Origin: Shigella phage SHSML-45
Length of the DNA stretch: 64,000 nt
Reading direction: 5' to 3' (one strand)
Sequence record: KX130863
Under the pieces are notes generated by a model. The model was not told the DNA's origin. It did not search any database and saw nothing but the letters and a program-made list of their open reading frames with translations. Shown here in pieces: positions 11,821 to 64,000 of this stretch. The position numbers and the translations under genes are program-made. How positions within the stretch are numbered: the stretch's first letter is position 1; every line of letters starts with the position of its first letter.

Positions 11821-11896
11821 TGGTAGTTAGTAGTGGATTTGAACCACTGTAGTCGCTCCGTATGAAGGAGGTGCATAACCACTCTGCCAACTAACT
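11821..11896 (-). tRNA. tRNA, anticodon CAT (Met, fMet or Ile2)
   Basis: Hand fold: acceptor AGTTAGT/ACTAACT, anticodon loop TTCATAC, T-arm GGTTCAAATCC, encoded CCA. Confidence 0.6.
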
Positions 11897-11992
11897 ATTA
11901 TGTTTTACTAGGCTAAGTAAGTATTCTTTATACTCTTTAGACCAACTAGCTTTTTTAAACTTTCCTGGACGCATAGCCTTAATTCCTAGATT

Positions 11993-12069
11993 TGGTACTC
12001 CGGGAGGGATTTAAACCCCCGATCTCTCGGTTATCAGCCGAGTGCTTTAGATCGCTAAGCTACCGAAGC
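11993..12069 (-). tRNA. tRNA-Ile (GAT)
   Basis: Acceptor GCTTCGG, anticodon arm CTCGG-CTGATAA-CCGAG, encoded CCA. Confidence 0.7.
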
Positions 12070-12084
12070 ATTAAAATATTTACA

Positions 12085-12375
12085 TCACACACTGTCTAAG
12101 TAAGAAGTATAGTGGAATTTAGTTTCTCCAGTATTATCTACTTCTACCTCAGTTCGTGGTACTTGACGAACCACACCATGAATCATCTTATATCGGATGC
12201 CTCTAGCTGGTTCATGATCTTTTGGAAATACTTGTTTAACCGTCACTACTTTATATTCTTCACGCGGTGTTAGCACTACTACTTGATCACCCTCTTTGAT
12301 TTTCCAAGAAGATGGAAATTCATAGGTGTATCTTTGACCACCGGTAAGGAATATAACAGAAAGATAACGTTTCAT
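12085..12375 (-). CDS. hypothetical protein (96 aa)
   Basis: ORF between tRNA genes with its own promoter-like motif upstream. Confidence 0.4.
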   Translation of the reverse strand: MKRYLSVIFLTGGQRYTYEFPSSWKIKEGDQVVVLTPREEYKVVTVKQVFPKDHEPARGIRYKMIHGVVRQVPRTEVEVDNTGETKFHYTSYLDSV

Positions 12376-12452
12376 TTGGTTTCCCTCTCATTAATTTATA
12401 TAAATATTATAGCAATAAATAAGAGAGAAAGCAAATGAGTTTTTCTTGAAAT

Positions 12453-12527
12453 TGGTAGCGGGTTCCAGTACTGCCCTGGACTTACTTAGCTTATGAGACT
12501 AAGAAGAACTCTATGCCTCCCACCCGC
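12453..12527 (-). tRNA. tRNA-like, anticodon CAT, non-canonical T-loop
   Basis: Anticodon arm TTAGT-CTCATAA-GCTAA folds, but the T-loop (GGCAGTA) and acceptor pairing are imperfect. Confidence 0.35.
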
Positions 12528-12535
12528 AATTGTTT

Positions 12536-12660
12536 GGTCATTCTAGGCAGGACTCGAACCTGCTATCACTTGTGCGGACTTACGAGAACCATTCTTTCAC
12601 TCGAATCGAACGAGCTTCTGCCCTCGCCAAGTTGGTTTCCCCATCAACCACGCTAGAATG
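12536..12660 (-). ncRNA. tRNA-like or structured RNA region (two T-arm-like motifs)
   Basis: GCAGG-TTCGAGT-CCTGC and GCTCG-TTCGATT-CGAGT T-arm-like hairpins in an ORF-free stretch; I could not fold a complete cloverleaf by hand. Confidence 0.3.
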
Positions 12661-12781
12661 TTAGATTGTTTTCAGTGCAAGAGTCCGAGTCTTGGACACG
12701 ACCGCTTCGCAAGTACATAGGCAGCTTATCATGAGTCAGCACTTCCGAATTGCTAGCTCCGTGTTCTGCACTGAAATTCTG

Positions 12782-13129
12782 TTAGTTTAATCGTAAAGTA
12801 TTATCTACTTCACCATTAATTGTTCGGCATTCCTCTGGGATTGCCGGGGTGGCCTTGTATTCCCACCACTCAGCACCATCATATTCCCCACGTTCTAGCC
12901 AAGTTCCATCGGCAAACCATACATTACCATAAAGTAATTGTCCACCGTATCCAGAATCATATTCAAAGTCTAGGTTATTAAGAAAATCCTCAATGTATTC
13001 TTCTGTATAACCTAAAGGTAATACCCAAACTTTTTTATCCCCATAATACCCGAATTCTATTTTAATACACTTAACTTTAGAATTGGTATTTTTTAAGGCG
13101 AGTAACAGCTCTTCTTTAGCATTACGCAT
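12782..13129 (-). CDS. hypothetical protein (115 aa)
   Basis: ORF, W/Y-rich. Confidence 0.4.
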   Translation of the reverse strand: MRNAKEELLLALKNTNSKVKCIKIEFGYYGDKKVWVLPLGYTEEYIEDFLNNLDFEYDSGYGGQLLYGNVWFADGTWLERGEYDGAEWWEYKATPAIPEECRTINGEVDNTLRLN

Positions 13130-13153
13130 AGTATATTCTCATACTGAATTATT

Positions 13154-13231
13154 TTGGCGCGACCGATGGGATTTGAACCCACATTCCCTCCCGTGACAGG
13201 GGAGTACCATTACCAAGCCAGCCCCGGTCGC
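13154..13231 (-). tRNA. tRNA-Asp (GTC)
   Basis: Acceptor GCGACCG, anticodon arm CTCCC-CTGTCAC-GGGAG, T-arm GGTTCAAATCC, encoded CCA. Confidence 0.7.
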
Positions 13232-13240
13232 ATAATTTAT

Positions 13241-13426
13241 TTACTCAGCTTTGAGTTTTTCAATAGCTGCATTAAGTTCTTTAAGAAACTCTTTTCGTAC
13301 ATTAAGACGATTGAGACTTACTAGTATATCATGTTTAAGTTCTTCGATGTATTTCTTCTCAACTTCAATATTGTTGATAGTGCTATCACGATGAACTTCT
13401 AGCTGCGCAATCACATTCTTGGACAT
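13241..13426 (-). CDS. small coiled-coil protein (61 aa)
   Basis: ORF. Confidence 0.3.
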   Translation of the reverse strand: MSKNVIAQLEVHRDSTINNIEVEKKYIEELKHDILVSLNRLNVRKEFLKELNAAIEKLKAE

Positions 13427-13453
13427 GCTTGTTTCCTCAGTTATTAATGAAAA

Positions 13454-13526
13454 TGGTATCTGTGGCTGAATTCGATGTCAGCAATGATAGCTGGTTGGCT
13501 ACCGGTTTACTTAACTCTACACAGAA
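13454..13526 (-). tRNA. tRNA-like (anticodon unresolved)
   Basis: Canonical 3' half (GCTGA-CATCGAA-TCAGC T-arm, acceptor, CCA) but the anticodon arm folds with a 6-nt loop. Confidence 0.35.
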
Positions 13527-13528
13527 TT

Positions 13529-13611
13529 TGGCGGGCCGTGTAGGATTCGAACCTACGTTGTCTTTCGACACGGATTAACAATCCGCCGCCAAACCGCTTG
13601 GCTAACGACCC
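13529..13611 (-). tRNA. tRNA with anticodon GTT (Asn) and an extended variable arm
   Basis: Acceptor GGGTCGT/ACGGCCC, anticodon arm GCGGA-TTGTTAA-TCCGT, 13-nt variable region, T-arm GTAGG-TTCGAAT-CCTAC, CCA. Confidence 0.5.
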
Positions 13612-13763
13612 TAAATTTATATTGCTGACTAGGATTTTCACCTAGACGGAGTTAGCACCGTAGCGTGTAGCGGCATACCTCTCCAAACCGTGCCTCATCT
13701 TTCAATTACGGAGACAGTGTTCCTACGCGTGCCTGAATTGATTTAACAATTCTTTCAGCAAAT

Positions 13764-13839
13764 TGGACGACCGCATGAGATTTGAACTCACATAAAAAGG
13801 ATTTGCAATCCTTCGCCTAAGCCATTCAGCCAACGGTCG
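13764..13839 (-). tRNA. tRNA-Cys (GCA)
   Basis: Anticodon arm AAGGA-TTGCAAA-TCCTT, T-arm GGTTCAAATC, CCA. Confidence 0.7.
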
Positions 13840-14017
13840 ATCTATCTTGTTTTTCGAGATCTTCAAATTCTAGATCATTGAAGTTCCCTAGAGTACGGGT
13901 GTAGAACCTATCTCCTGAGTCATAGCCTGATTTACCACAATCATACATTTTAAATTCACGAAGAGGTGTGAAAATGTGTTCAGAACCACAACACTTAAAT
14001 CTAACTAATCGTTTCAT
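13826..14017 (-). CDS. small protein (63 aa)
   Basis: ORF; its 3' end overlaps the tRNA-Cys call, so one of the two is misplaced. Confidence 0.25.
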   Translation of the reverse strand: MKRLVRFKCCGSEHIFTPLREFKMYDCGKSGYDSGDRFYTRTLGNFNDLEFEDLEKQDRSTVG

Positions 14018-14066
14018 TAGCTTCTCCAGTTCAATTTATGTAATTATTATATAGAACTTTTGGAAA

Positions 14067-14345
14067 CTAAGCGACTACATTTTTTAAGAATTTGATGCCT
14101 TTCTTTTTCTTCTTATATTTCCACGTTAATGGATTTTGTCGATTATGAGCGCTTGAGATCTTTGTCTCGTCAAAGTTCTTCAATATCATGTAATCACAGG
14201 ATAATTGTTCTAGTGGAATGTGATCACCGTCAAAAGCGTATACATAAGGCTGTTGACTAGCACGATAATGATAGACTTTGTTAATTCTACGTTTCAGCGA
14301 CTTATCCGCGCAGTAAATAAAGAAGTTTTCAGGATGCATCAGCAT
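14067..14345 (-). CDS. hypothetical protein (92 aa)
   Basis: ORF. Confidence 0.4.
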   Translation of the reverse strand: MLMHPENFFIYCADKSLKRRINKVYHYRASQQPYVYAFDGDHIPLEQLSCDYMILKNFDETKISSAHNRQNPLTWKYKKKKKGIKFLKNVVA

Positions 14346-14356
14346 CTACTTCAATT

Positions 14357-14440
14357 TGGTGCATCGTGATGGATTTGAACCACCAACCCCGAAGGGCACG
14401 GATTTACAGACCGCTGCAATAGACATTCTGCCAACGATGC
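14357..14440 (-). tRNA. tRNA-Tyr (GTA), class II
   Basis: Anticodon loop CTGTAAA identical to E. coli tRNA-Tyr, long variable arm GCCCTTCGGGG, T-arm GGTGG-TTCAAAT-CCATC, CCA. Confidence 0.65.
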
Positions 14441-14568
14441 ACATTTAAAAGTATTCAAATACTAGTTTAAACACTTTTAAATATGTTTCCAAATTAGATA
14501 ACTATTATACCAAGTTTTAAGGCACTGAGCAAGTCAAATTTCGAAGAACTTGCTCAGTGCTGTATTAG

Positions 14569-14844
14569 TTAGTCGAACTTAGGAGTGACAGTTAAGGAGA
14601 ACGGAAGTTCAAAAACTTCTTCCCCCTCATTACTAACTGTAACTACACGACCTTTAAGTTCAGACATTAAAATATCAATATCAGCTTTTGCATCTGGAGC
14701 CATGCCAGCTTCAACACATTTAGCTTTAACTTCCGGAAGGAGTTCTACATCGTAGAAATAAAGCCATTCAATCTCACCTTCCCAGCCTTCCCAGGATTTA
14801 CAGATTGCACTTTCAATACCAGTTGCTATAACACGATTTTGCAT
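14569..14844 (-). CDS. hypothetical protein (91 aa)
   Basis: ORF. Confidence 0.4.
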   Translation of the reverse strand: MQNRVIATGIESAICKSWEGWEGEIEWLYFYDVELLPEVKAKCVEAGMAPDAKADIDILMSELKGRVVTVSNEGEEVFELPFSLTVTPKFD

Positions 14845-14934
14845 TCGTTAACTCCTTCATCAATTTATATAACTATTATATCAGAAATTTAAAGTAAAAG
14901 GCAAGTACATTTTTAAAAATTCTATTCGGAGGAG

Positions 14935-15141
14935 CTAAACTCCAGATTCTTCGGCCAAGTCTAGACTAATAAGAGTTATAGCCATAATTGCCGCACCATG
15001 TTCTTTTTCCCCGGTGTTTTTAGCAGAGTCTATAATATCCTTAATCTGTTCGTAATAACTTTTTACTTCTTGTTCAATACCTGCCTCGGCTATCATGCCT
15101 TTAGTCATGATTCGTTGCATAGTAATTTCACGGTTAGCCAT
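14935..15141 (-). CDS. hypothetical protein (68 aa)
   Basis: ORF; a possible unlisted 39-codon ORF (15133-15249) overlaps its start in an ATGGCTAA arrangement. Confidence 0.35.
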   Translation of the reverse strand: MANREITMQRIMTKGMIAEAGIEQEVKSYYEQIKDIIDSAKNTGEKEHGAAIMAITLISLDLAEESGV

Positions 15142-15316
15142 GATGTTTCTCCAGCTTCATTTTTAATAGTTTACAAATGAAGTCAACGTCTTCATCTGTG
15201 CCTAGATCTCTATCTTCAAGAGTTGCCTTGAAGTTTTTCGTTAGTTCCATAAGAACTACTTCTCTAGAACGACGTGTTGGCGGGGGTGGATGTCTATACA
15301 TCTTATTTCCTTAATT

Positions 15317-15391
15317 TGGTGGGTCGGAGGAGAATCTAACTCCTACTCGTTAGCTTATGAGGCCACCGCTTTAACTTTAAGCTACCGACCC
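15317..15391 (-). tRNA. tRNA, anticodon CAT (Met-type)
   Basis: Acceptor GGGTCGG/CCGACCC, anticodon loop CTCATAA, encoded CCA; T-loop is non-canonical (TTAGATT). Confidence 0.5.
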
Positions 15392-15397
15392 TATGTT

Positions 15398-15486
15398 TGG
15401 CGGAAGAAGGGGGAATCGAACCCACAAGGCTATATTTCAAACCGACAGATTAGCAATCTGCTGCAATACCGTTATGCTATTCTTCC
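15398..15486 (-). tRNA. tRNA-Ser (GCT), class II
   Basis: Acceptor GGAAGAA, anticodon arm GCAGA-TTGCTAA-TCTGT, long variable arm, T-arm TGGG-TTCGATT-CCCC, CCA. Confidence 0.7.
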
Positions 15487-15507
15487 GAATTTATAAGATA
15501 TATTATA

Positions 15508-16026
15508 TTAGAAATTTAGCTTCATGGCAAGAAAATTTTTCAAGTTTTCGGTAGACATCTCATCCACATCTATAGGAGAAACAAACCCATTTAATTGTCT
15601 AGCAAACTTTTCGCCAGCAGGATCATTATCCCCAACAGCTACCAATTTAAAAGGTAGTAATTTCAATTGCTTTAATAGCGGTTTTCCTGGAGAAGAACCC
15701 AACATTGCTAGAGCAGGATACCCAGCATTATGTAATGCTACAGCCTTAAATACAGATTCAGCAATTAATACTACTTTTTCATCCCCATTGAGAGTTTCTA
15801 GTCCCCATACACACTGTGTAGTAGAATAAGTAAAATATCTAGCTTCAAAGGGGCACTTACCATGACCTTTTGGAGCAGAAGGATTATAAGTCTGATAGCC
15901 TCTCAACATTCCAGAGAAGTCATACAATGGGACTGTTAGCCATCCTTCTGGGCTTAACCAGCAGTGATATTTATCTGTATCAAACCCTCTAGATAAGAGA
16001 TGTTCTGTTAGTTCATCAATAGTCAT
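15508..16026 (-). CDS. hypothetical protein with Toprim-like DxD segment
   Basis: KLVAVGDNDPAGEKFA resembles a Toprim acidic motif; start moved to the Met with GAGAGGAA SD (MTIDELTEHL). Confidence 0.4.
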   Translation of the reverse strand: MTIDELTEHLLSRGFDTDKYHCWLSPEGWLTVPLYDFSGMLRGYQTYNPSAPKGHGKCPFEARYFTYSTTQCVWGLETLNGDEKVVLIAESVFKAVALHNAGYPALAMLGSSPGKPLLKQLKLLPFKLVAVGDNDPAGEKFARQLNGFVSPIDVDEMSTENLKNFLAMKLNF

Positions 16027-16246
16027 ACTAGATTCCTCTCTCAAATTTATAAATATATTATGCAGAGAATTTAGCATTCAAGCAATTGAATTTTTTAACT
16101 TTTTAGAGGAAAATCACAGGATGCTTAAGGGTAGCAGGTAAGTGGGTAGACCCCAAAATTGTTATCCCCACTTGATTTTCAATGTGATATAGTGTAAAGT
16201 ATTTGTCATAGCTGAGTGACCAAAGAGACACACTTATCCTCTACCT

Positions 16247-16287
16247 TAAAACAGAAAAGCCCTGCGCTCTCCAGGGAACACAGGGCT
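16247..16287 (-). terminator. rho-independent terminator
   Basis: gccctg...cagggc stem followed on the minus transcript by UUUUCUGUUUU. Confidence 0.45.
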
Positions 16288-16311
16288 TACTTCGAATATT
16301 ACGTGTGGGAA

Positions 16312-17259
16312 TTACTTGTTACGCATATCCATAATCATCTGGCCATCGTAACCAGTGCCAACTACTGTTTGAGGTACACCGCCTTGATATTTCTGAGCAC
16401 GAATCATTTCAACTTCTAGTTGTTTCCAGCGAATCATCTCAGGAGTAATAGTACGTTGCAGAGCGGCGTTAGCTTCGGCTTCCTTCTTAGCTGCGTACAG
16501 TTTAGCATCTGCATCACGTTCGTTTGCAATAGCTTGGTTGTTACGAGCTTCACGATCTGCTTCTGCTTGTTTAACCTTCTGCTGTGCTTCTTGTTCAACA
16601 CGAGCCAACTCAGCTTTCGCAGCATTAACTTGTTCCTCACGAACTTTGGTATTCTGTACCTGTTCCACGATTACAGGCGGCAAAGTAATATCCTGAAGGA
16701 ACACTTGCTTAACTGTGTAACCATAAGGGCGTGCATACTCTTCAACTTCCTGTTGAATTGCGGTTTGTAATTGAGCCTGGATTTTAGCATCAAACAAATC
16801 TTGTGCTTTAGGAACAGACTTACCGAACTCACGAATAGTGGACAGTAATTTTTCAGTTACATATTTGTCTAATGCTTGATCCTGGGTACCTGCGTTAATA
16901 CGGTTAATCGGTGCCTTAGAACCATCAAACTGCAACATAACAGTCAGGTCAACAGTGGATTTAAACTTATCCTGACTAGGAACCTGAAGTTTATCTAATT
17001 TTACAGCAATGTCTTTTGTACTAAAAGTATCGAAAGATGCAAATGGGTTTACAAGATGAAAACCAGGTAATACAGGATTAGGGTCTACTTTACCCAGAAA
17101 TGTTTGGGTTTTAACCGTACCATCAGAAACAATAGTATATGAATTAAAAGCTAGGATTAAACCTGCTAAACCAACTACAGCACCAATACCCCAACGTTTA
17201 ATAGTGCGAATTACTTTTTGCTCAGAAGTCAGTTCTTTCATATTTTTAGTATTAAACAT
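16312..17259 (-). CDS. SPFH/band-7 (prohibitin/HflC-like) membrane protein
   Basis: N-terminal TM (GIGAVVGLAGLILAF), SPFH-like core, then an Ala/Glu/Gln-rich coiled coil (EQVNAAKAELARVEQEAQQKVKQAEADREARNNQAIA) as in HflK/HflC. Confidence 0.65.
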   Translation of the reverse strand: MFNTKNMKELTSEQKVIRTIKRWGIGAVVGLAGLILAFNSYTIVSDGTVKTQTFLGKVDPNPVLPGFHLVNPFASFDTFSTKDIAVKLDKLQVPSQDKFKSTVDLTVMLQFDGSKAPINRINAGTQDQALDKYVTEKLLSTIREFGKSVPKAQDLFDAKIQAQLQTAIQQEVEEYARPYGYTVKQVFLQDITLPPVIVEQVQNTKVREEQVNAAKAELARVEQEAQQKVKQAEADREARNNQAIANERDADAKLYAAKKEAEANAALQRTITPEMIRWKQLEVEMIRAQKYQGGVPQTVVGTGYDGQMIMDMRNK

Positions 17260-17270
17260 ATATTTCCTTA

Positions 17271-17471
17271 TTATTTAGAAGAGTTAGCTACTACAGTTAC
17301 TTTAGTTGCAGAAATAAACAGGCTAGCATCCACAGCAAATTCAGGAGCTTTGATATCTCCATTATGAAATATGACTATACCGGAGACTACTTCAAATGCT
17401 AGTGCTGTAACATCGGTGGTATTTACTTGTGAATGTTCACCTACTACTTTTACTATATATCGTGTTTTCAC
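17271..17471 (-). CDS. small protein (66 aa)
   Basis: ORF directly upstream of the SPFH gene. Confidence 0.35.
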   Translation of the reverse strand: MKTRYIVKVVGEHSQVNTTDVTALAFEVVSGIVIFHNGDIKAPEFAVDASLFISATKVTVVANSSK

Positions 17472-17497
17472 TTTATTTTCCTAGCAGTTAATAAAAT

Positions 17498-17572
17498 TGG
17501 CCGAGGTGACAGGATTCGAACCTGCATAAAGGAATTTAGAAGACTCCTGCCTCTCCCTTAGACTACACCCCG
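17498..17572 (-). tRNA. tRNA-Arg (TCT)
   Basis: Acceptor CGGGGTG/CACCTCG, anticodon arm GGAGT-CTTCTAA-ATTCC, T-arm GGTTCGAATCC, CCA. Confidence 0.7.
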
Positions 17573-18074
17573 TTTAAGTATTTTTAAGAACTCTCGTAAA
17601 AACTCTTAAAAATACAGACGATACCGGGAGAGTCATAAGTCTCACTCATTAAGTATTTCAAGACAAAATACAGTAACGTCTATTATTTTCCAGTTTAAGT
17701 CAAGGTGACTTAGTGGTTATGTCCTGCGGTATACTGAGGACTCGGTTAGGTTAGGGTCATGACTCCCCACCTTTTGCTGCTACTCAACAGGAGTTATCGC
17801 GAATTACCTGTGCTATTGTGCACCATTAGTGACATCTCTCATGTCAGCATTTCCCACTTTGTGGATAGCTTGAAAAACTACTCCGATATGGAGAAAGAAC
17901 TTCACTATCCTAGAATACCTTCTAAAGTTCTTCTTTAGCCTGGACATAGTTAAATCGTAATAAAACTATTCAGCAGACTGGTTGGTTAGTCTGGAACCAA
18001 CTACCGCGTGGTTTAGGCAGTGCGCAACTAACCTCGGAAGCTTTTACGTTAAAAGCACCAGTTATCCAGTTCTT

Positions 18075-18146
18075 ACCGACCGTAGGATTCGAACCTACAT
18101 CTTCCACCAGTTACGGCTTGATAATACCGTTTATACTAGATCGGCA
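18075..18146 (-). tRNA. tRNA-like (anticodon unresolved; CCA not encoded)
   Basis: Perfect T-arm GTAGG-TTCGAAT-CCTAC and acceptor GCCGATC/GGTCGGT (two G-U pairs); anticodon arm did not fold by hand. Confidence 0.4.
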
Positions 18147-42937: not shown

Positions 42938-42968
42938 ATTTATATAAATTGATGAGAGATATAAATAA

Positions 42969-43940
42969 ATGACTAATGTAAAAGAATTTATTAAACGCTG
43001 TCAAGAAGCATATTATCAGGGTATGTCTTTAATCTCTGATGAGGAGTATGATTGCCTGGTAAAACGCTTCCCGTTAGAAGAAGAGATCGGGCCTAAGGGT
43101 GATATTCCACACCTATATCGTATGTATTCTTTACAGAAAGTTTATTATAACCGTGGGGATAAATCACCATTTAATCCTTTAGGTCAGGTAGAAACTGATA
43201 AGTTAGATGGTTGTGCAATTTCTCTGCTATATATTAACGGTGAATTTGTTCAAGCATTAACCCGTGGTAATGGTATTCTGGGAAATGATGTCACAAGCAA
43301 CGTAAGATTGCTGAACATCCCTAAAAAGATTTCCCAAAAAGTACCTACTCAAATCACTGGTGAAGTTCTAATTACAAAAGAAGTAGAAAATAAACGTAAC
43401 TTTGCCTCTGGTGCTATTAACCTCAAAGATAGTGATGCTTTCATACAACGCATTGGAGAAGGCGGTTTAATCTTTGTTGCTTATGGTATCCAATGTTCTG
43501 CTGAAGCTGTAGGTATTACAGAAGCATACTTAAAAGATATGCTTTGGCTAGAGAATGAGAACTTCTTAACAGTTGTTAATGTGCGTTCCTTCTTTAAATG
43601 GATTCCGACGGACGGTAAAGTTGTTCGTATTAATGACAACAACAAATTCTTCCGTGAGGGCTGGACAAATAAATTCCCTCGTGGAGCATTCGCCATTAAA
43701 GAGGATGAAGAAGGCGAGATTACAACTCTTACTAAAGTTGAATGGCAGGTAGGGGCTTCTGGTAAAGTAACTCCAGTTGGTTATTTCGAACCGGTAATTA
43801 TTGATGATGCTACGATTGTTAAAGCGACTCTTAATAACGTTGATTATATTAACTCTCTCGATCTAGAGATCGGTTGCCAGATTCGAGTGATTCGTGCCGG
43901 TGGTGTAATCCCGTGCATAGTAGAGCGAGTATACGATTAA
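42969..43940 (+). CDS. ligA: NAD-dependent DNA ligase, N-terminal portion (adenylation domain)
   Basis: KxDG adenylation motif in ETDKLDGCAISLLY; N-terminal LigA-like Ia region; stop codon before the Zn-finger domain. Confidence 0.7.
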   Translation: MTNVKEFIKRCQEAYYQGMSLISDEEYDCLVKRFPLEEEIGPKGDIPHLYRMYSLQKVYYNRGDKSPFNPLGQVETDKLDGCAISLLYINGEFVQALTRGNGILGNDVTSNVRLLNIPKKISQKVPTQITGEVLITKEVENKRNFASGAINLKDSDAFIQRIGEGGLIFVAYGIQCSAEAVGITEAYLKDMLWLENENFLTVVNVRSFFKWIPTDGKVVRINDNNKFFREGWTNKFPRGAFAIKEDEEGEITTLTKVEWQVGASGKVTPVGYFEPVIIDDATIVKATLNNVDYINSLDLEIGCQIRVIRAGGVIPCIVERVYD

Positions 43941-58858: not shown

Positions 58859-59350
58859 ATGGTAGATCCAAGAGTAACCCCAGAATACCTATGGGATAGA
58901 TACGAGTATAGAGATGGCACTCTTATCAATAAACATTCAAAAGGCAGAATGAAAGCAGGAGTACCAGCAGGTACTCCTAATAAGGCAGGATACCTAAGAG
59001 TAACATTATTCCAAAAACAAGAGTATATACATAGAATCATATTTTTTATGTTTAATGGTTATTGGCCTAAGGAGATAGATCATATTGATAGAGATAATAC
59101 TAACAATAGGATAGAGAATCTTAGAGAAGCAACAAGATCTCAAAATATGGCTAATCGTATAGGATCAAATAATTTTAGAGGAATCCAATTTAATGGTAGT
59201 AACTACACCGCTAGAATTGGTAATCCTTTTAATAGGAAAACTGAGTATATAGGTAGTTACCCAACCGCCGAGGATGCGGCAAGAGCCTATGATATTAAAG
59301 CAAAAGAATACTTCGGAGATTTCGCAGTATTAAACTTTGGTGAAGATTAA
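58859..59350 (+). CDS. HNH homing endonuclease
   Basis: IHRIIFFMFNGYWPKEIDHIDRDNTNNRIENLRE. Confidence 0.75.
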   Translation: MVDPRVTPEYLWDRYEYRDGTLINKHSKGRMKAGVPAGTPNKAGYLRVTLFQKQEYIHRIIFFMFNGYWPKEIDHIDRDNTNNRIENLREATRSQNMANRIGSNNFRGIQFNGSNYTARIGNPFNRKTEYIGSYPTAEDAARAYDIKAKEYFGDFAVLNFGED

Positions 59351-61376: not shown

Positions 61377-61384
61377 TAGAAAAA

Positions 61385-61419
61385 CCCCAGTGGATTTTGT
61401 CCACTGGGGTTTCTTTTTT
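61385..61419 (+). terminator. rho-independent terminator at end of the plus-strand block
   Basis: ccccagtgg-attttgt-ccactgggg hairpin followed by TTTCTTTTTT, preceded by AAAA. Confidence 0.6.
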
Positions 61420-61602: not shown

Positions 61603-61630
61603 AGAAAAAAGCCCATCCTGGGACGGGCTT
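61603..61630 (-). terminator. terminator for the minus-strand tail-fibre transcript
   Basis: Minus transcript reads agcccgtcccaggatgggc followed by UUUUUU. Confidence 0.45.
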
Positions 61631-61637
61631 GATATTC

Positions 61638-64000
61638 TTATGACATGTTGGAATCTTCTGGAGAAGTTCCATGCAGTTTTAAAAGGTTGTCTACAACAGC
61701 TTTAAGTTCCTCAATCTCTTTTTGTAGTCTGGATATCTTTTCCTTATTTTCATTATCACGTTTTGTTAAAGCTTGGATGGCTGCTAGACCATCAAGCAAC
61801 ATCGGAGTCGTGTCAAGATGCAACTTATCTCCGACTTTTGTCGTGTATTCGCGGTCAATCCACCTGACTTGCTGAGCAATAACACCTCGTCTGGTGCTTC
61901 GTTCAGGGGAATCGTTCAGATAACGGAATAGCTTAAATTCCATTCTGTTAATATTATCTAATGCACCTTCAACATTAAGATTGCCTTTAATATCTTTCAG
62001 GCTTTCATCAGATACGGCGGCGGTTGTTACTTTCAACCAGTCCTTCCATACTTTCTTACCGTCATCCCTTACCCTTGTATATAATCGGCCAGAATCTTTA
62101 TCCCAGCATAGGTGACCGACATAGCAGCCAGCTGCAGCAGTATTACCAGTACCGAATGCAGCCAGTACTCCGTAAGTCGCTGGAAGAATATGTGTCTTAC
62201 GCCCATTTATATACGATATCGCTTTTGTTGTATATACTTCATCTGCTGTATATCCAGCGGCTAAAAAATCAACTATATCAGTATTTTCTAGTGCAAATTT
62301 CTTCCACTCCTTCCAGCTATTATTCTCCATGCATCTACCGTAAAAGCCATTGTCTCTTGCCGCTATCTGCATTGCGTAGGAATTACTGTATCCAACGTGT
62401 ATCCCCCCGTGCACCAAATCAACGGGTGCATTAGCTTGCCCGGCCATAAATAAGCCACGGTTAACTGTGGCATTGCCGTTATTCCAGTTCATGCTTGTGG
62501 CAGTCGTAATTCCCTCCGGAGACCAAAAGCGACCAGACTTATCAAATTCCCACACAGCAACGCCACCAGAAGTACCTGGAGATCTGTTTAGGATTTGTAA
62601 GTTTGATGCCCCAGCACGAAATTCCGCCTGACTAACTAGCTCGCTATTTGAGTTATACAGCCTTGATATAAAAGATGATCCAGTAAGATTTAGATTCTCA
62701 CCATCCGCAAAAATCCCAGACGTACCCCTTGATGTGATGCTTGAGAATCTAACGGCCGATGAATACCCAAGACCAATAAATGTCCTAAATGGATCATCAC
62801 TCCTCGGCATTACCCATCTATTCCATGCTGTCCACTGGGATACTTCGCCAATAAAATTATAATAACGAGCGTAATAATTGGTTGTGTTATTGTATGGGTA
62901 GTAAAACTGAATACAACACTCAACACTATTTGCACTATTCCTGAGCACTACAAGAGTACCAGCAGTACGCTCTGGATAGTTCAGTTCAGGCGTTGCAGAA
63001 GCAACGGCAACCTGCATGTAAATACCTGATTTAGTACCAGTGAGAGTATTTAAATCAGTGTTACCGAGGTTGCCGCTTGATTCATAGAATGCCGATAGGT
63101 TTTTACGCGCATTGCTTGCGTCAGCCGCACCAGTACCACCATTACCAATACTAAGAGCTATCCATTGACCATTCCACCCGCCCCAAGTGTTATTATCCTG
63201 AACACGAAGACGCATAGCACCATTCGCACTTAAAAAGTCTGAATACGATGCGCCTTGAACAACCTTGTCAACTTTTAGGTTTGTCCTTGCTGTATTGATA
63301 TTAGCAACATCTGCAAGGTTTTGATCTTTTTTCAACGTACCGGATGCAGCTTGCTCAGCCCGGGCAGCAGCGGCCTCCGCATCACTTGCTTTCTGCGTAG
63401 CAATGTCAGCTTTACTGGTGGAAGTAGCGGCACTCTGCTCCGCCTGGGTAGCTTTATCTGTAGCTGTACTTGCAGCGGTAACGGCTGTATTTTTTAGCGC
63501 TGTAGTTTCAGCAACCGCGTCATCTTTAATCTTCTGTGTATCAACCTTAATTTGATTTATTGTGACTACAGCAGCACTAGCTGTGTTAGCAGATTCCGCC
63601 GCTTCGGCTTGTGCTTGTTTAGCAGCGTCTTCACTAGCTTTTGAGTTAATTTCGCTAGTCTTTGTATTAATTTCTGAGTTTTTTGCTGCTAATGCTGATG
63701 TGGAGGCTTGTGCAGCGAATGCTTCTGCTTCATCCCTGAATCCTTTGGAGTCAGAAGCAGAGGCAGCGGAAGCAGCAGCATTAGTCTCGCTAGTTTTTGC
63801 TGCTGCTGCATATGCTGCTGCATTAGTCTCGCTAGTTTTTGCGTTAGTCTCACTAGTTTTTGCATTAGTCTCACTAGTTTTTGCTGCAGCTGATGATTCT
63901 AGAGCGTTAGTTTCACTAGTTTTTGCTGCAGCTGATGATTCTGCAGCTTTAGTAGCGGACGCAGCAGATTGAGAAGCAGAGCAGAGGCATCGGCACTATC
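61638..64000 (-). CDS. tail fibre protein with C-terminal intramolecular chaperone domain; 5' end beyond the window
   Basis: C-terminal 110 aa resemble a self-cleaving chaperone (peptidase S74-like) domain; I found no in-frame stop upstream of the ORF-track TTG start out to 63900, and 63600-63900 encodes Ala-rich AKTSETN heptad repeats. Confidence 0.7.

What the first reader, a model, noticed from the sequence alone, without database searches (positions are those of the whole stretch)
63560..63910. 21-bp tandem repeats encoding AKTSETN heptads in the tail-fibre gene
Near-perfect repeats of the ttagtctc(a/g)ctagtttttgc unit encode (A)KTSETN(A) heptads embedded in Ala-rich sequence. The reading frame stays open from the TTG at 63335 to at least 63900, so the fibre gene continues past the window edge. 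Such repeats are hotspots for slippage or recombination that change fibre length or host range.
Basis: seen in the sequence. Interest (0 to 1): 0.45.

Follow-up and report, generated by a model that had tools for sequence, protein, structure and literature searches.

The report
Heptad repeats in a broken tail-fibre gene
The 21-base repeats are real and encode AKTSETN heptads of the helical shaft of a T5-type side tail fibre, an ordinary feature shared with over a hundred sequenced phages, but in this genome (Shigella phage SHSML-45) a 4-base deletion just upstream breaks the fibre gene.

Summary
Five 21-nt units (18-21 of 21 identical, 0 expected by chance) lie on the minus strand at 63926-63906, 63884-63822 (three in tandem) and 63800-63780. 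Each encodes AKTSETN, and three 7-codon spacers keep the heptad register. The units belong to the L-shaped tail fibre gene (ltf, pb1-like) of a T5-like phage, identified as Shigella phage SHSML-45. This stretch is predicted to be alpha-helical with 3.5-residue apolar periodicity. It follows the N-terminal helix that forms a three-helix coiled coil in the DT57C cryo-EM structure.

About 130 related records have the same array length. Rare variants differ by -63, -42 or +21 nt, so the array is length-polymorphic but not hypervariable. A mosaic crossover maps to the degenerate heptads at 63650-63620.

All 99 relatives that span the site carry 4 extra bases (TATT) at 63981/63980. The N-terminal frame therefore ends at TAG 63901-63899, and the repeat frame has no start codon until the TTG at 63335, where the public record begins its 565-aa "tail fibers protein". 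As sequenced, the gene is a frameshifted, probably fibre-less allele, or a local assembly error.

The feature is a known kind and of low interest.

The parts
61638..63995 (-). Distal 785 codons plus the stop of the L-shaped tail fibre gene (ltf, pb1-like). This is the frame that carries the repeats. It has no stop and no ATG, GTG, TTG or CTG between 63995 and 63336.
   Evidence: PHROG tail fibre families phrog_6578 (6.7e-176) and phrog_5481
63981..64000 (-). Last 20 nt of the N-terminal reading frame of ltf (DSADASA). They are 20/20 identical to beppo, and relatives such as H8 match apart from the 4-nt gap. This frame differs from the repeat frame.
63980..63981 (-). Junction of a 4-nt deletion (TATT/ATTT in relatives, GCTATTTCT becoming GCTCT). 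It causes the frameshift in ltf.
   Evidence: alignment. In one search, every relative listed that covers query 1-101 spans 105 nt. The exact junction is absent from IMG/VR, metagenome and genome contigs.
63996..63998 (-). TAG stop in the repeat frame. It closes that frame upstream, so no upstream compensating indel could rescue it.
63899..63901 (-). TAG that ends the shifted N-terminal frame (…DSADASALLLNLLRPLLKLQNHQLQQKLVKLTL*).
63906..63926 (-). 21-nt unit 1, AKTSETN
63822..63884 (-). 21-nt units 2-4 in strict tandem, AKTSETN x3
63780..63800 (-). 21-nt unit 5, AKTSETN
63927..63947 (-). Spacer heptad AAESSAA. Together with unit 1 it forms the first 42-nt superunit.
   Evidence: 38/42 identical to the second superunit
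63885..63905 (-). Spacer heptad ALESSAA (second 42-nt superunit together with unit 2)
63801..63821 (-). Spacer heptad AAAYAAA
63717..63755 (-). SDSKGFRDEAEAF motif. The predicted helix breaks here and the AKTSETN-type register shifts by 3 residues. The motif is conserved in both parental lineages, and Shivani Ltf carries three GF/GYRD-type motifs (one identical to this one).
63624..63686 (-). Degenerate heptads AKNSEIN TKTSEIN SKASEDA (weak 21-nt repeat)
63620..63650 (-). Mosaic crossover. Upstream the sequence is SE19/beppo-type (Epseptimavirus, 97-99%). Downstream it is the type of the ENA contig that encodes P0122 (88%).
63333..63335 (-). TTG used as the start of the 565-aa 'tail fibers protein' in the public record (ANN87205.1 / YP_009280326.1). 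No Shine-Dalgarno-like motif lies upstream. It is most likely an annotation artefact of the frameshift.
61863..62012 (-). Peptidase_S74 intramolecular chaperone domain (residues 662-711 of the 785-aa translation)
   Evidence: E 5.6e-8, 33.4 bits against a cutoff of 22
61609..61630 (-). Terminator-like hairpin plus T-run directly after the ltf stop codon

Best explanation
The repeats are in-frame 21-bp (and 42-bp) duplications inside the 5' third of the L-shaped tail fibre gene (ltf, the pb1/LtfA homologue) of a T5-like phage, identified as Shigella phage SHSML-45.

Each unit encodes one heptad, AKTSETN, with Ala at position a and Ser at position d. The heptads lie in a long alpha-helix that, by homology with DT57C LtfA, packs as a three-helix coiled coil and forms the proximal shaft of the fibre. 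This is inferred. Adding or removing a unit lengthens or shortens the shaft by about 1 nm without disturbing the register.

The heptad-coding DNA is conserved between otherwise different fibre genes. It therefore serves as a homologous-recombination site through which distal receptor-binding modules are exchanged. One such crossover is visible at 63650-63620.

In this particular genome a 4-nt deletion about 55 nt upstream of the first unit shifts the frame. The N-terminal collar-attachment part ends at TAG 63901-63899. The repeat-bearing frame is closed upstream by TAG 63998-63996 and has no start codon for 220 codons. As sequenced, no full-length fibre can be made. The phage would be a fibre-less variant like T5hd1 or laboratory lambda (inferred), and the public 565-aa CDS is a truncated call.
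For: - **Repeats and heptads:**. The units differ only at synonymous third-codon positions, which indicates selection on the peptide.
- **Tail-fibre identity:** Peptidase_S74 domain, PHROG tail-fibre families, 97-99% nucleotide identity to annotated L-shaped tail fibre genes, and synteny dUTPase - small ORF - ltf - ltfC - pb4 in relatives.
- **Helical coiled-coil character:** apolar periodicity of 3.5 residues with z = 4.9, and z = 3.4 outside the exact repeats. AlphaFold2 gives two long helices, 2-74 and 82-241, at mean pLDDT 83.8. In DT57C LtfA a long helix from T40 forms a trimeric coiled coil (PMC10713586). Ur-lambda Stf has a proximal coiled coil at residues 102-393 (PMC12617516).
- **Length classes in multiples of 21 nt:**
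- **Mosaic crossover:**
- **Frameshift:**. Its junction is unique across the collections searched.
- **Assembly quality:** about 60 kb of the window is collinear with Shivani. The only uncompensated indels are two 1-nt indels, and both map between Shivani's annotated CDS.
- **Source genome:** 100% match of the 565-aa ORF to SHSML-45.
- **Fibres are dispensable on rough hosts:** PMC10713586 and PMC11313276.
Against: - The trimeric state and the coiled-coil packing of this segment are inferred, not modelled. The AlphaFold run was a single-sequence monomer.
- Ala/Ser at positions a and d make an unusually small and polar core.
- The 4-nt deletion could be a local assembly or consensus error. No reads are available and the upstream part of the gene lies outside the window.
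- SHSML-45 is used against Shigella strains, some of which carry O antigen, and T5-like phages can need lateral fibres on such hosts (PMC10713586). That argues for an intact fibre in the real phage.
- The array length is the same in about 130 records, so unit gain or loss is infrequent.
Confidence: 0.8

Rival explanations
1. The gene is intact in the real phage. The missing TATT is an assembly or consensus error in the deposited genome, so the repeats are simply part of a functional fibre of about 900 aa.
For: All 99 relatives that cover the site have the 4 bases. Intact fibres with the same distal part exist: P0122 at 952 aa and P0123 at 951 aa. Lateral fibres can be essential on O-antigen-bearing hosts (PMC10713586). 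The genome was assembled de novo with default CLC settings (PMC5376334).
Against: The data are Illumina MiSeq and the deletion is 4 nt long, not a single-base homopolymer miscount, which is not a typical error. Elsewhere in about 60 kb the window shows no frame-breaking indel relative to Shivani. Loss-of-fibre mutations during laboratory propagation are well documented for T5 and lambda.
Confidence: 0.35
2. The array is a contingency locus. Frequent slipped-strand changes in copy number would tune fibre length or switch host range.
For: Variants at -63, -42 and +21 nt occur among close relatives. More distant T5-like fibres carry many more heptads, for example 11 exact KTSETN in chee130_1.
Against: The unit is a multiple of 3, so it cannot switch the gene on or off. 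About 130 records share one length. The units are interrupted by synonymous differences, and at most 3 are in tandem. The receptor-binding region lies more than 400 codons downstream. One heptad corresponds to only about 1 nm.
Confidence: 0.07
3. The public annotation is right. The real gene is the 565-aa ORF that starts at TTG 63335, and the repeats are non-coding upstream DNA.
For: The CDS is annotated in this way (ANN87205.1 / YP_009280326.1). It is the only mechanical ORF found.
Against: There are 220 stop-free codons upstream in the same frame, at 97-99% identity to the coding sequence of intact fibres. The repeat units differ only synonymously. No Shine-Dalgarno motif precedes the TTG. 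A protein lacking the N-terminal beta-strand lasso could not attach to the LtfC collar (PMC10713586).
Confidence: 0.04
4. The frameshift is bypassed by programmed -1 ribosomal frameshifting or transcriptional slippage, giving a full-length fibre.
For: A -1 shift between 63980 and 63902 would restore the frame. A CAAAAAC run lies there.
Against: No X XXY YYZ heptamer exists in the N-terminal frame between 64000 and 63899. Five A residues are too few for efficient slippage. No relative needs recoding at this site.
Confidence: 0.02

Closest known systems
L-shaped / lateral tail fibre of T5-like phages (T5 pb1/Ltf, DT57C LtfA; Demerecviridae)
   Same: The genomic position next to the dUTPase and early genes is the same, and the gene lies on the late strand. 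The Ala/Ser/Glu-rich heptad region follows the N-terminal domain. The C-terminus carries a Peptidase_S74 intramolecular chaperone. Nucleotide identity to Epseptimavirus ltf genes over the repeat block is 97-99%.
   Different: The gene is interrupted by a unique 4-nt deletion. The distal two-thirds comes from another lineage, 88% identical to the ENA contig encoding P0122 and 83% to MET_P1_100_107. The N-terminal collar-binding part is outside the window.
Lambda side tail fibre Stf (Ur-lambda versus laboratory lambda)
   Same: It has a proximal trimeric coiled coil built from Ala/Ser/Thr-rich sequence. The laboratory strain carries a frameshift that abolishes the dispensable side fibres (PMC12617516). 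Relatives of the distal domain carry the Stf-type N-terminal domain PF08400.
   Different: The N-terminal attachment domain differs, and the phage family is different. That Stf contains the AKTSETN motif rests on my own recollection and was not tested here.
AKTSETN / NAKxSExN heptad arrays in unrelated phage fibre and baseplate proteins
   Same: The same heptad occurs, often as runs of exact KTSETN, in proteins of about 330-420 aa from many metagenomic phages. Some of these carry BppU_N (PF10651). More than 600 IMG/VR stretches match the peptide patterns. The unit also matches at the DNA level in Vibrio, Klebsiella and Corynebacterium phage fibre genes.
   Different: These proteins share only the repeat, not the flanking domains. 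No Pfam or NCBIfam model covers the repeat, and no solved structure matches it by sequence.
Fibre-less T5 mutants (T5hd1)
   Same: They have lost the L-shaped fibres yet retain plaque formation on laboratory hosts (PMC11313276). That is the phenotype predicted for this allele.
   Different: The lesion in T5hd1 was not compared. The phenotype of SHSML-45 is unknown.

Membership tests
T5-type L-shaped tail fibre (pb1/Ltf/LtfA) | Gene sits at the late/early boundary, downstream of ltfC (collar) and pb4 and convergent with the dUTPase/flap endonuclease block | tested here: met
   The window shows the order D13-like nuclease, HNH, D14, flap endonuclease, dUTPase, small ORF, then ltf on the opposite strand. 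Relatives show ltfC and pb4 immediately upstream. The upstream side itself is outside the window.
T5-type L-shaped tail fibre (pb1/Ltf/LtfA) | N-terminal ~40 residues that insert as beta-strands into the LtfC/p132 collar | not testable with these tools
   These residues lie beyond the window edge. Only the last 7 codons of the N-terminal frame (DSADASA) are visible.
T5-type L-shaped tail fibre (pb1/Ltf/LtfA) | Long alpha-helical trimerisation or shaft region after the N-terminal domain | tested here: met
   Helices 2-74 and 82-241 in the AlphaFold2 model and 3.5-residue apolar periodicity with z = 4.9. The trimeric state is inferred from DT57C and was not tested.
T5-type L-shaped tail fibre (pb1/Ltf/LtfA) | C-terminal auto-cleaving intramolecular chaperone (Peptidase_S74) | tested here: met
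   PF13884, E 5.6e-8, 33.4 bits against a cutoff of 22, residues 662-711
T5-type L-shaped tail fibre (pb1/Ltf/LtfA) | One uninterrupted reading frame from the N-terminal domain to the chaperone | tested here: not met
   A 4-nt deletion at 63981/63980, TAG 63998-63996 in the repeat frame, and TAG 63901-63899 in the N-terminal frame. This is a disrupted allele of the family, or a sequence error.
Alpha-helical coiled-coil heptad repeat | 7-residue periodicity with small or apolar residues at positions a and d, sustained over many heptads | tested here: met
   Position 1 is Ala in most heptads and position 4 is mostly Ser or another small residue, across about 30 heptads. The spectral peak at 3.5 has z = 4.9. 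There is one register shift, at SDSKGF.
Alpha-helical coiled-coil heptad repeat | Oligomeric helix packing (a trimer for fibres) | not tested
   Only a monomer prediction was possible. No solved homologue of this segment was found.
Slipped-strand contingency (phase-variable) repeat | Unit length not divisible by 3 or a promoter location, with frequent copy-number change among near-identical isolates | tested here: not met
   The unit is 21 nt and lies inside the coding sequence. About 130 records share the same length, and only 5 distinct phages differ.
Programmed -1 ribosomal frameshift site | Slippery X XXY YYZ heptamer in the zero frame upstream of the zero-frame stop | tested here: not met
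   No such heptamer lies between 64000 and 63899.

The most novel reading that the evidence does not exclude
The 4-nt deletion is genuine. SHSML-45, a component of a commercial Shigella phage cocktail, would then be a naturally fibre-less T5-like phage whose host range rests on the central receptor-binding protein alone. The AKTSETN array would now be an untranslated remnant, and the 565-aa 'tail fibers protein' in the databases would be an artefact. A more remote possibility is that the break is bypassed by an unrecognised recoding or re-initiation event.
Probability: 0.55. Interest if true: 0.35.

Novelty: already known. Interest (0 to 1): 0.22.

Why it matters
The repeat itself is a routine building block of phage fibre shafts. 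It is already present at 97-99% identity in more than 100 public genomes, and several of those records annotate it as a repeat_region. It matters mainly in three practical ways.

1. It marks the conserved DNA at which distal, host-specific fibre modules are swapped. This is useful for engineering or predicting the host range of T5-like phages.
2. The heptad is shared by many unrelated phage fibres but has no Pfam or NCBIfam model, so it goes unannotated.
3. The adjacent frameshift means that the database entry for this phage's tail fibre is a truncated call. The phage, a component of a food-safety and therapeutic cocktail, may lack lateral fibres, which would affect adsorption to O-antigen-bearing hosts.

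Tried and rejected
- **Protein search with the repeat-rich N-terminal 240 aa.** It was swamped by low-complexity candidates and returned unrelated ~400-aa KTSETN-rich proteins instead of T5-like fibres. It showed how widespread the motif is but was useless for counting copies.
- **IMG/VR locus search.** The outcome was the same, and few T5-like contigs came back.
- **Copy-number comparison.** I did this instead from BLAST span differences and six fetched loci.
- **Exact search for the deletion junction.** There were no hits in IMG/VR, JGI metagenomes or GTDB genomes.
- **The look-up of encoding contigs for the 565-aa ORF and for P0121.** Neither is on record, so the upstream half of the gene could not be read.
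- **Accession KX130863.** I guessed it from memory, and it is not in the collections.
- **Search for an annotated N-terminal fragment carrying the frameshift tail.** Nothing from SHSML-45 was found.
- **PDB sequence search and NCBIfam.** Neither found anything for the repeat region.
- **Literature search for 'KTSETN'.** It returned 0 papers.
- **Fold search on the AlphaFold model.** I did not run it, because two long single helices would match any helical protein.
- **Programmed frameshifting.** I considered it and rejected it, because there is no slippery heptamer.
- **Upstream compensating indel.** I rejected this as well, because the TAG at 63998-63996 closes the repeat frame whatever lies upstream.
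Full report
**1. What is in the sequence**

On the minus strand of 63000-64000 there is a long frame rich in Ala, Ser, Thr, Glu and Lys. Tandem Repeats Finder reports three arrays:
- period 21 at 63778-63884, 5.1 copies;
- period 42 at 63775-63953, 4.3 copies;
- a weak 21-nt pair at 63630-63674.

A search with the unit GCAAAAACTAGTGAGACTAAT, allowing 3 mismatches, finds five copies. All are on the minus strand, at 63780-63800, 63822-63842, 63843-63863, 63864-63884 and 63906-63926. None appeared in 100 dinucleotide-preserving shuffles.

Written in register, the protein reads SAASATK AAESSAA AKTSETN ALESSAA AKTSETN AKTSETN AKTSETN AAAYAAA AKTSETN AAASAAS ASDSKGF RDEAEAF. The five units differ only at unit positions 12, 15 and 21. 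All three are third-codon positions and all changes are synonymous.

The stated interval is loose. 63560-63623 holds no repeat, and the array extends past 63910 to 63926, or 63947 for the 42-nt superunit.

**2. What gene it is and where the window comes from**

The last 8 kb of the window match T5-like Salmonella phages (Demerecviridae), with Shivani at 99.4% over the flanking genes. The gene order is D13-like nuclease, HNH endonuclease, D14, flap endonuclease, dUTPase, and then the fibre gene on the opposite strand.

The 785-codon frame carries a C-terminal Peptidase_S74 chaperone domain. It matches PHROG tail-fibre families, with phrog_6578 at E 6.7e-176. The repeat block is 97-99% identical in DNA to genes annotated as 'L-shaped tail fiber' or 'tail fiber protein' in more than 100 phages. 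In several records (beppo, ende, bastian and others) it overlaps an annotated repeat_region.

The mechanical ORF from TTG 63335 (565 aa) is 100% identical to ANN87205.1 / YP_009280326.1, 'tail fibers protein [Shigella phage SHSML-45]', on a 108,050-nt genome. SHSML-45 is the one siphovirus in the ShigActive/ShigaShield cocktail. It was sequenced on a MiSeq and assembled with CLC (PMC4745833; PMC5376334).

**3. The frame problem**

There is one: TAG at 63998-63996.

The first 20 nt at the window edge (64000-63981) read DSADASA in a different frame. They are identical to the corresponding codons of beppo, and H8 and other relatives match them apart from the 4-nt gap. The alignment shows that the window lacks 4 nt: GCTATTTCT in relatives is GCTCT here. 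Every relative listed that covers this spot spans 105 nt against the window's 101 (99 records cover at least 80% of the query), so none shares the deletion. The exact junction is absent from IMG/VR, JGI metagenome contigs and GTDB genome contigs.

The consequences can be read directly from the sequence:
- The N-terminal frame runs into TAG at 63901-63899, giving …DSADASALLLNLLRPLLKLQNHQLQQKLVKLTL*.
- The repeat frame is closed upstream by the TAG at 63998-63996, so no compensating indel beyond the window could rescue it.
- The repeat frame has no ATG, GTG, TTG or CTG in the 220 codons down to the TTG at 63335.
- That TTG has no Shine-Dalgarno-like motif before it.
- There is no X XXY YYZ slippery heptamer in the N-terminal frame.

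The deposited genome therefore cannot encode a full-length fibre, and the public 565-aa CDS is a by-product of the frameshift.

Whether the deletion is real cannot be settled without reads. About 60 kb of the window is collinear with Shivani. The only uncompensated indels are two 1-nt indels (4344 and 23497), and by the Shivani annotation both fall between CDS. The assembly is therefore not indel-prone. A 4-nt deletion is not a single-base homopolymer miscount and is not a typical Illumina error. Lateral fibres are dispensable on rough hosts and are lost in laboratory T5 (T5hd1) and laboratory lambda (PMC10713586; PMC11313276; PMC12617516). I put a genuine mutation at roughly 0.55-0.65 and a local assembly error at roughly 0.35.

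**4. What the repeats do**

The 228 residues from SASQ… to …LADVANI are 31% Ala, 14% Ser and 12% Thr. Apolar residues recur with a 3.5-residue period (z = 4.9, and z = 3.4 in the part without exact repeats). In the AKTSETN register, position 1 is Ala in most heptads and position 4 is mostly Ser or another small residue.

A single-sequence AlphaFold2 model has mean pLDDT 83.8. It gives two long helices, residues 2-74 (the whole AKTSETN block) and 82-241. They are separated by a low-confidence break at ASDSKGF, exactly where the AKTSETN-type register shifts by three residues.

In the cryo-EM structure of the T5-like phage DT57C, LtfA residues 1-39 form beta-strands locked into the LtfC collar. 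A long helix starting at T40 forms a three-helix coiled coil that points away from the tail (PMC10713586). Ur-lambda Stf likewise has a proximal coiled coil at residues 102-393.

By inference, the AKTSETN heptads are part of this trimeric helical shaft. From standard helix geometry, each 21-nt unit adds about 1 nm. The trimeric packing of this segment was not tested.

**5. Is it a hotspot?**

Among close relatives the array length falls into four classes relative to the window:

| Length class | Records |
|---|---|
| 0 | about 130 records |
| -63 nt | Shivani only |
| -42 nt | phagemcphageface, falkor, S.Kent 1-2-1 |
| +21 nt | MET_P1_137_112 only |

All differences are multiples of 21, as expected for unequal exchange or slippage between units. 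They are rare, and the units are interrupted by synonymous differences.

More distant T5-like fibres carry very different numbers of heptads. chee130_1 has 11 exact KTSETN, and MET_P1_100_107 has 15 matches to a looser AKTSETN-like pattern, 5 of them exact. The shaft does therefore change length over evolutionary time. Because the unit is divisible by 3 and the receptor-binding part lies more than 400 codons downstream, slippage here cannot switch the gene or retarget it.

Recombination is better supported. The window is SE19/beppo-like (97.7%) down to 63610. From about 63650 downward it is like the ENA contig that encodes the intact 952-aa fibre P0122 (88% overall). The switch falls in 63650-63620, inside the degenerate heptads TKTSEIN SKASEDA, which both lineages share almost exactly.

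**6. How widespread the heptad is**

The repeat-rich query recovered hundreds of unrelated ~330-420-aa phage proteins with runs of NAKTSETN, some carrying the BppU_N domain. More than 600 IMG/VR stretches match the peptide patterns. The unit also matches at the DNA level in Vibrio, Klebsiella and Corynebacterium phage fibre genes. No Pfam or NCBIfam model covers the repeat, no solved structure matches it by sequence, and no paper in the library contains the string KTSETN.

**7. Verdict**

It is partly wrong: the frame does not continue past the window edge, and the array is not a hypervariable hotspot or a host-range switch.

The feature is a known, common element of phage fibre shafts. The one non-routine point is the 4-nt deletion, which breaks ltf in this cocktail phage and explains the truncated public annotation.

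Noticed in passing
window 63980-63998 (minus strand): A 4-nt deletion relative to all 99 relatives that cover the site shifts the frame of the tail fibre gene. The repeat frame is closed by TAG 63998-63996. The public record annotates only the 565-aa remainder from TTG 63335 as 'tail fibers protein' (ANN87205.1 / YP_009280326.1).
   Followed up: yes
window 63620-63650: A mosaic junction lies inside the fibre gene. Upstream the sequence is Epseptimavirus-type (SE19/beppo, 97-99%). Downstream it is the type of an ENA metagenome contig (P0122, 88%) and of MET_P1_100_107 (83%). The crossover lies in degenerate heptads shared by both lineages.
   Followed up: yes
window 63717-63755; also L001 (Shivani ltf): The motif S(D/E)SKGFRDEAEAF marks the only predicted helix break and a 3-residue register shift. 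GF/GYRD-type motifs occur three times in Shivani Ltf and are conserved across fibre lineages, which may indicate a hinge or stutter element.
   Followed up: partly
window 61609-61630 and 61380-61414: A terminator-like hairpin plus T-run lies directly after the ltf stop codon. A second hairpin of 14-15 bp is read as a terminator on both strands and sits between the convergent early and late transcription units.
   Followed up: no
window 11821-18146 (minus strand): A cluster of 10 tRNA genes. ARAGORN calls one of them tRNA-Ser with the unusual anticodon ACT (18073-18146). No counterpart appears among the tRNAs annotated in Shivani over the aligned region.
   Followed up: no
window ~42958-42969 versus L088 43615-43817: About 200 nt present in Shivani, covering its small hypothetical gene CPT_Shivani104, are missing from the window. 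The next 6 kb are more diverged (96.7%) than the rest (98.4-99.3%).
   Followed up: no
window 4344 and 23497: These are the only uncompensated single-base indels relative to Shivani in about 60 kb of alignment. By the Shivani annotation, both fall between annotated CDS.
   Followed up: partly
window 58859-59350 (+): A 163-aa ORF lies between the D13-like nuclease and D14. At the matching position Shivani annotates an HNH homing endonuclease with an AP2/ERF domain. Shivani annotates several such HNH homing endonucleases across the region aligned to the window.
   Followed up: no
proteins P0001-P0120; loci L006-L082: Runs of the same NAKTSETN heptad occur in hundreds of unrelated metagenomic phage proteins of about 330-420 aa, some with BppU_N. 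The motif has no Pfam or NCBIfam model and no literature hit.
   Followed up: partly
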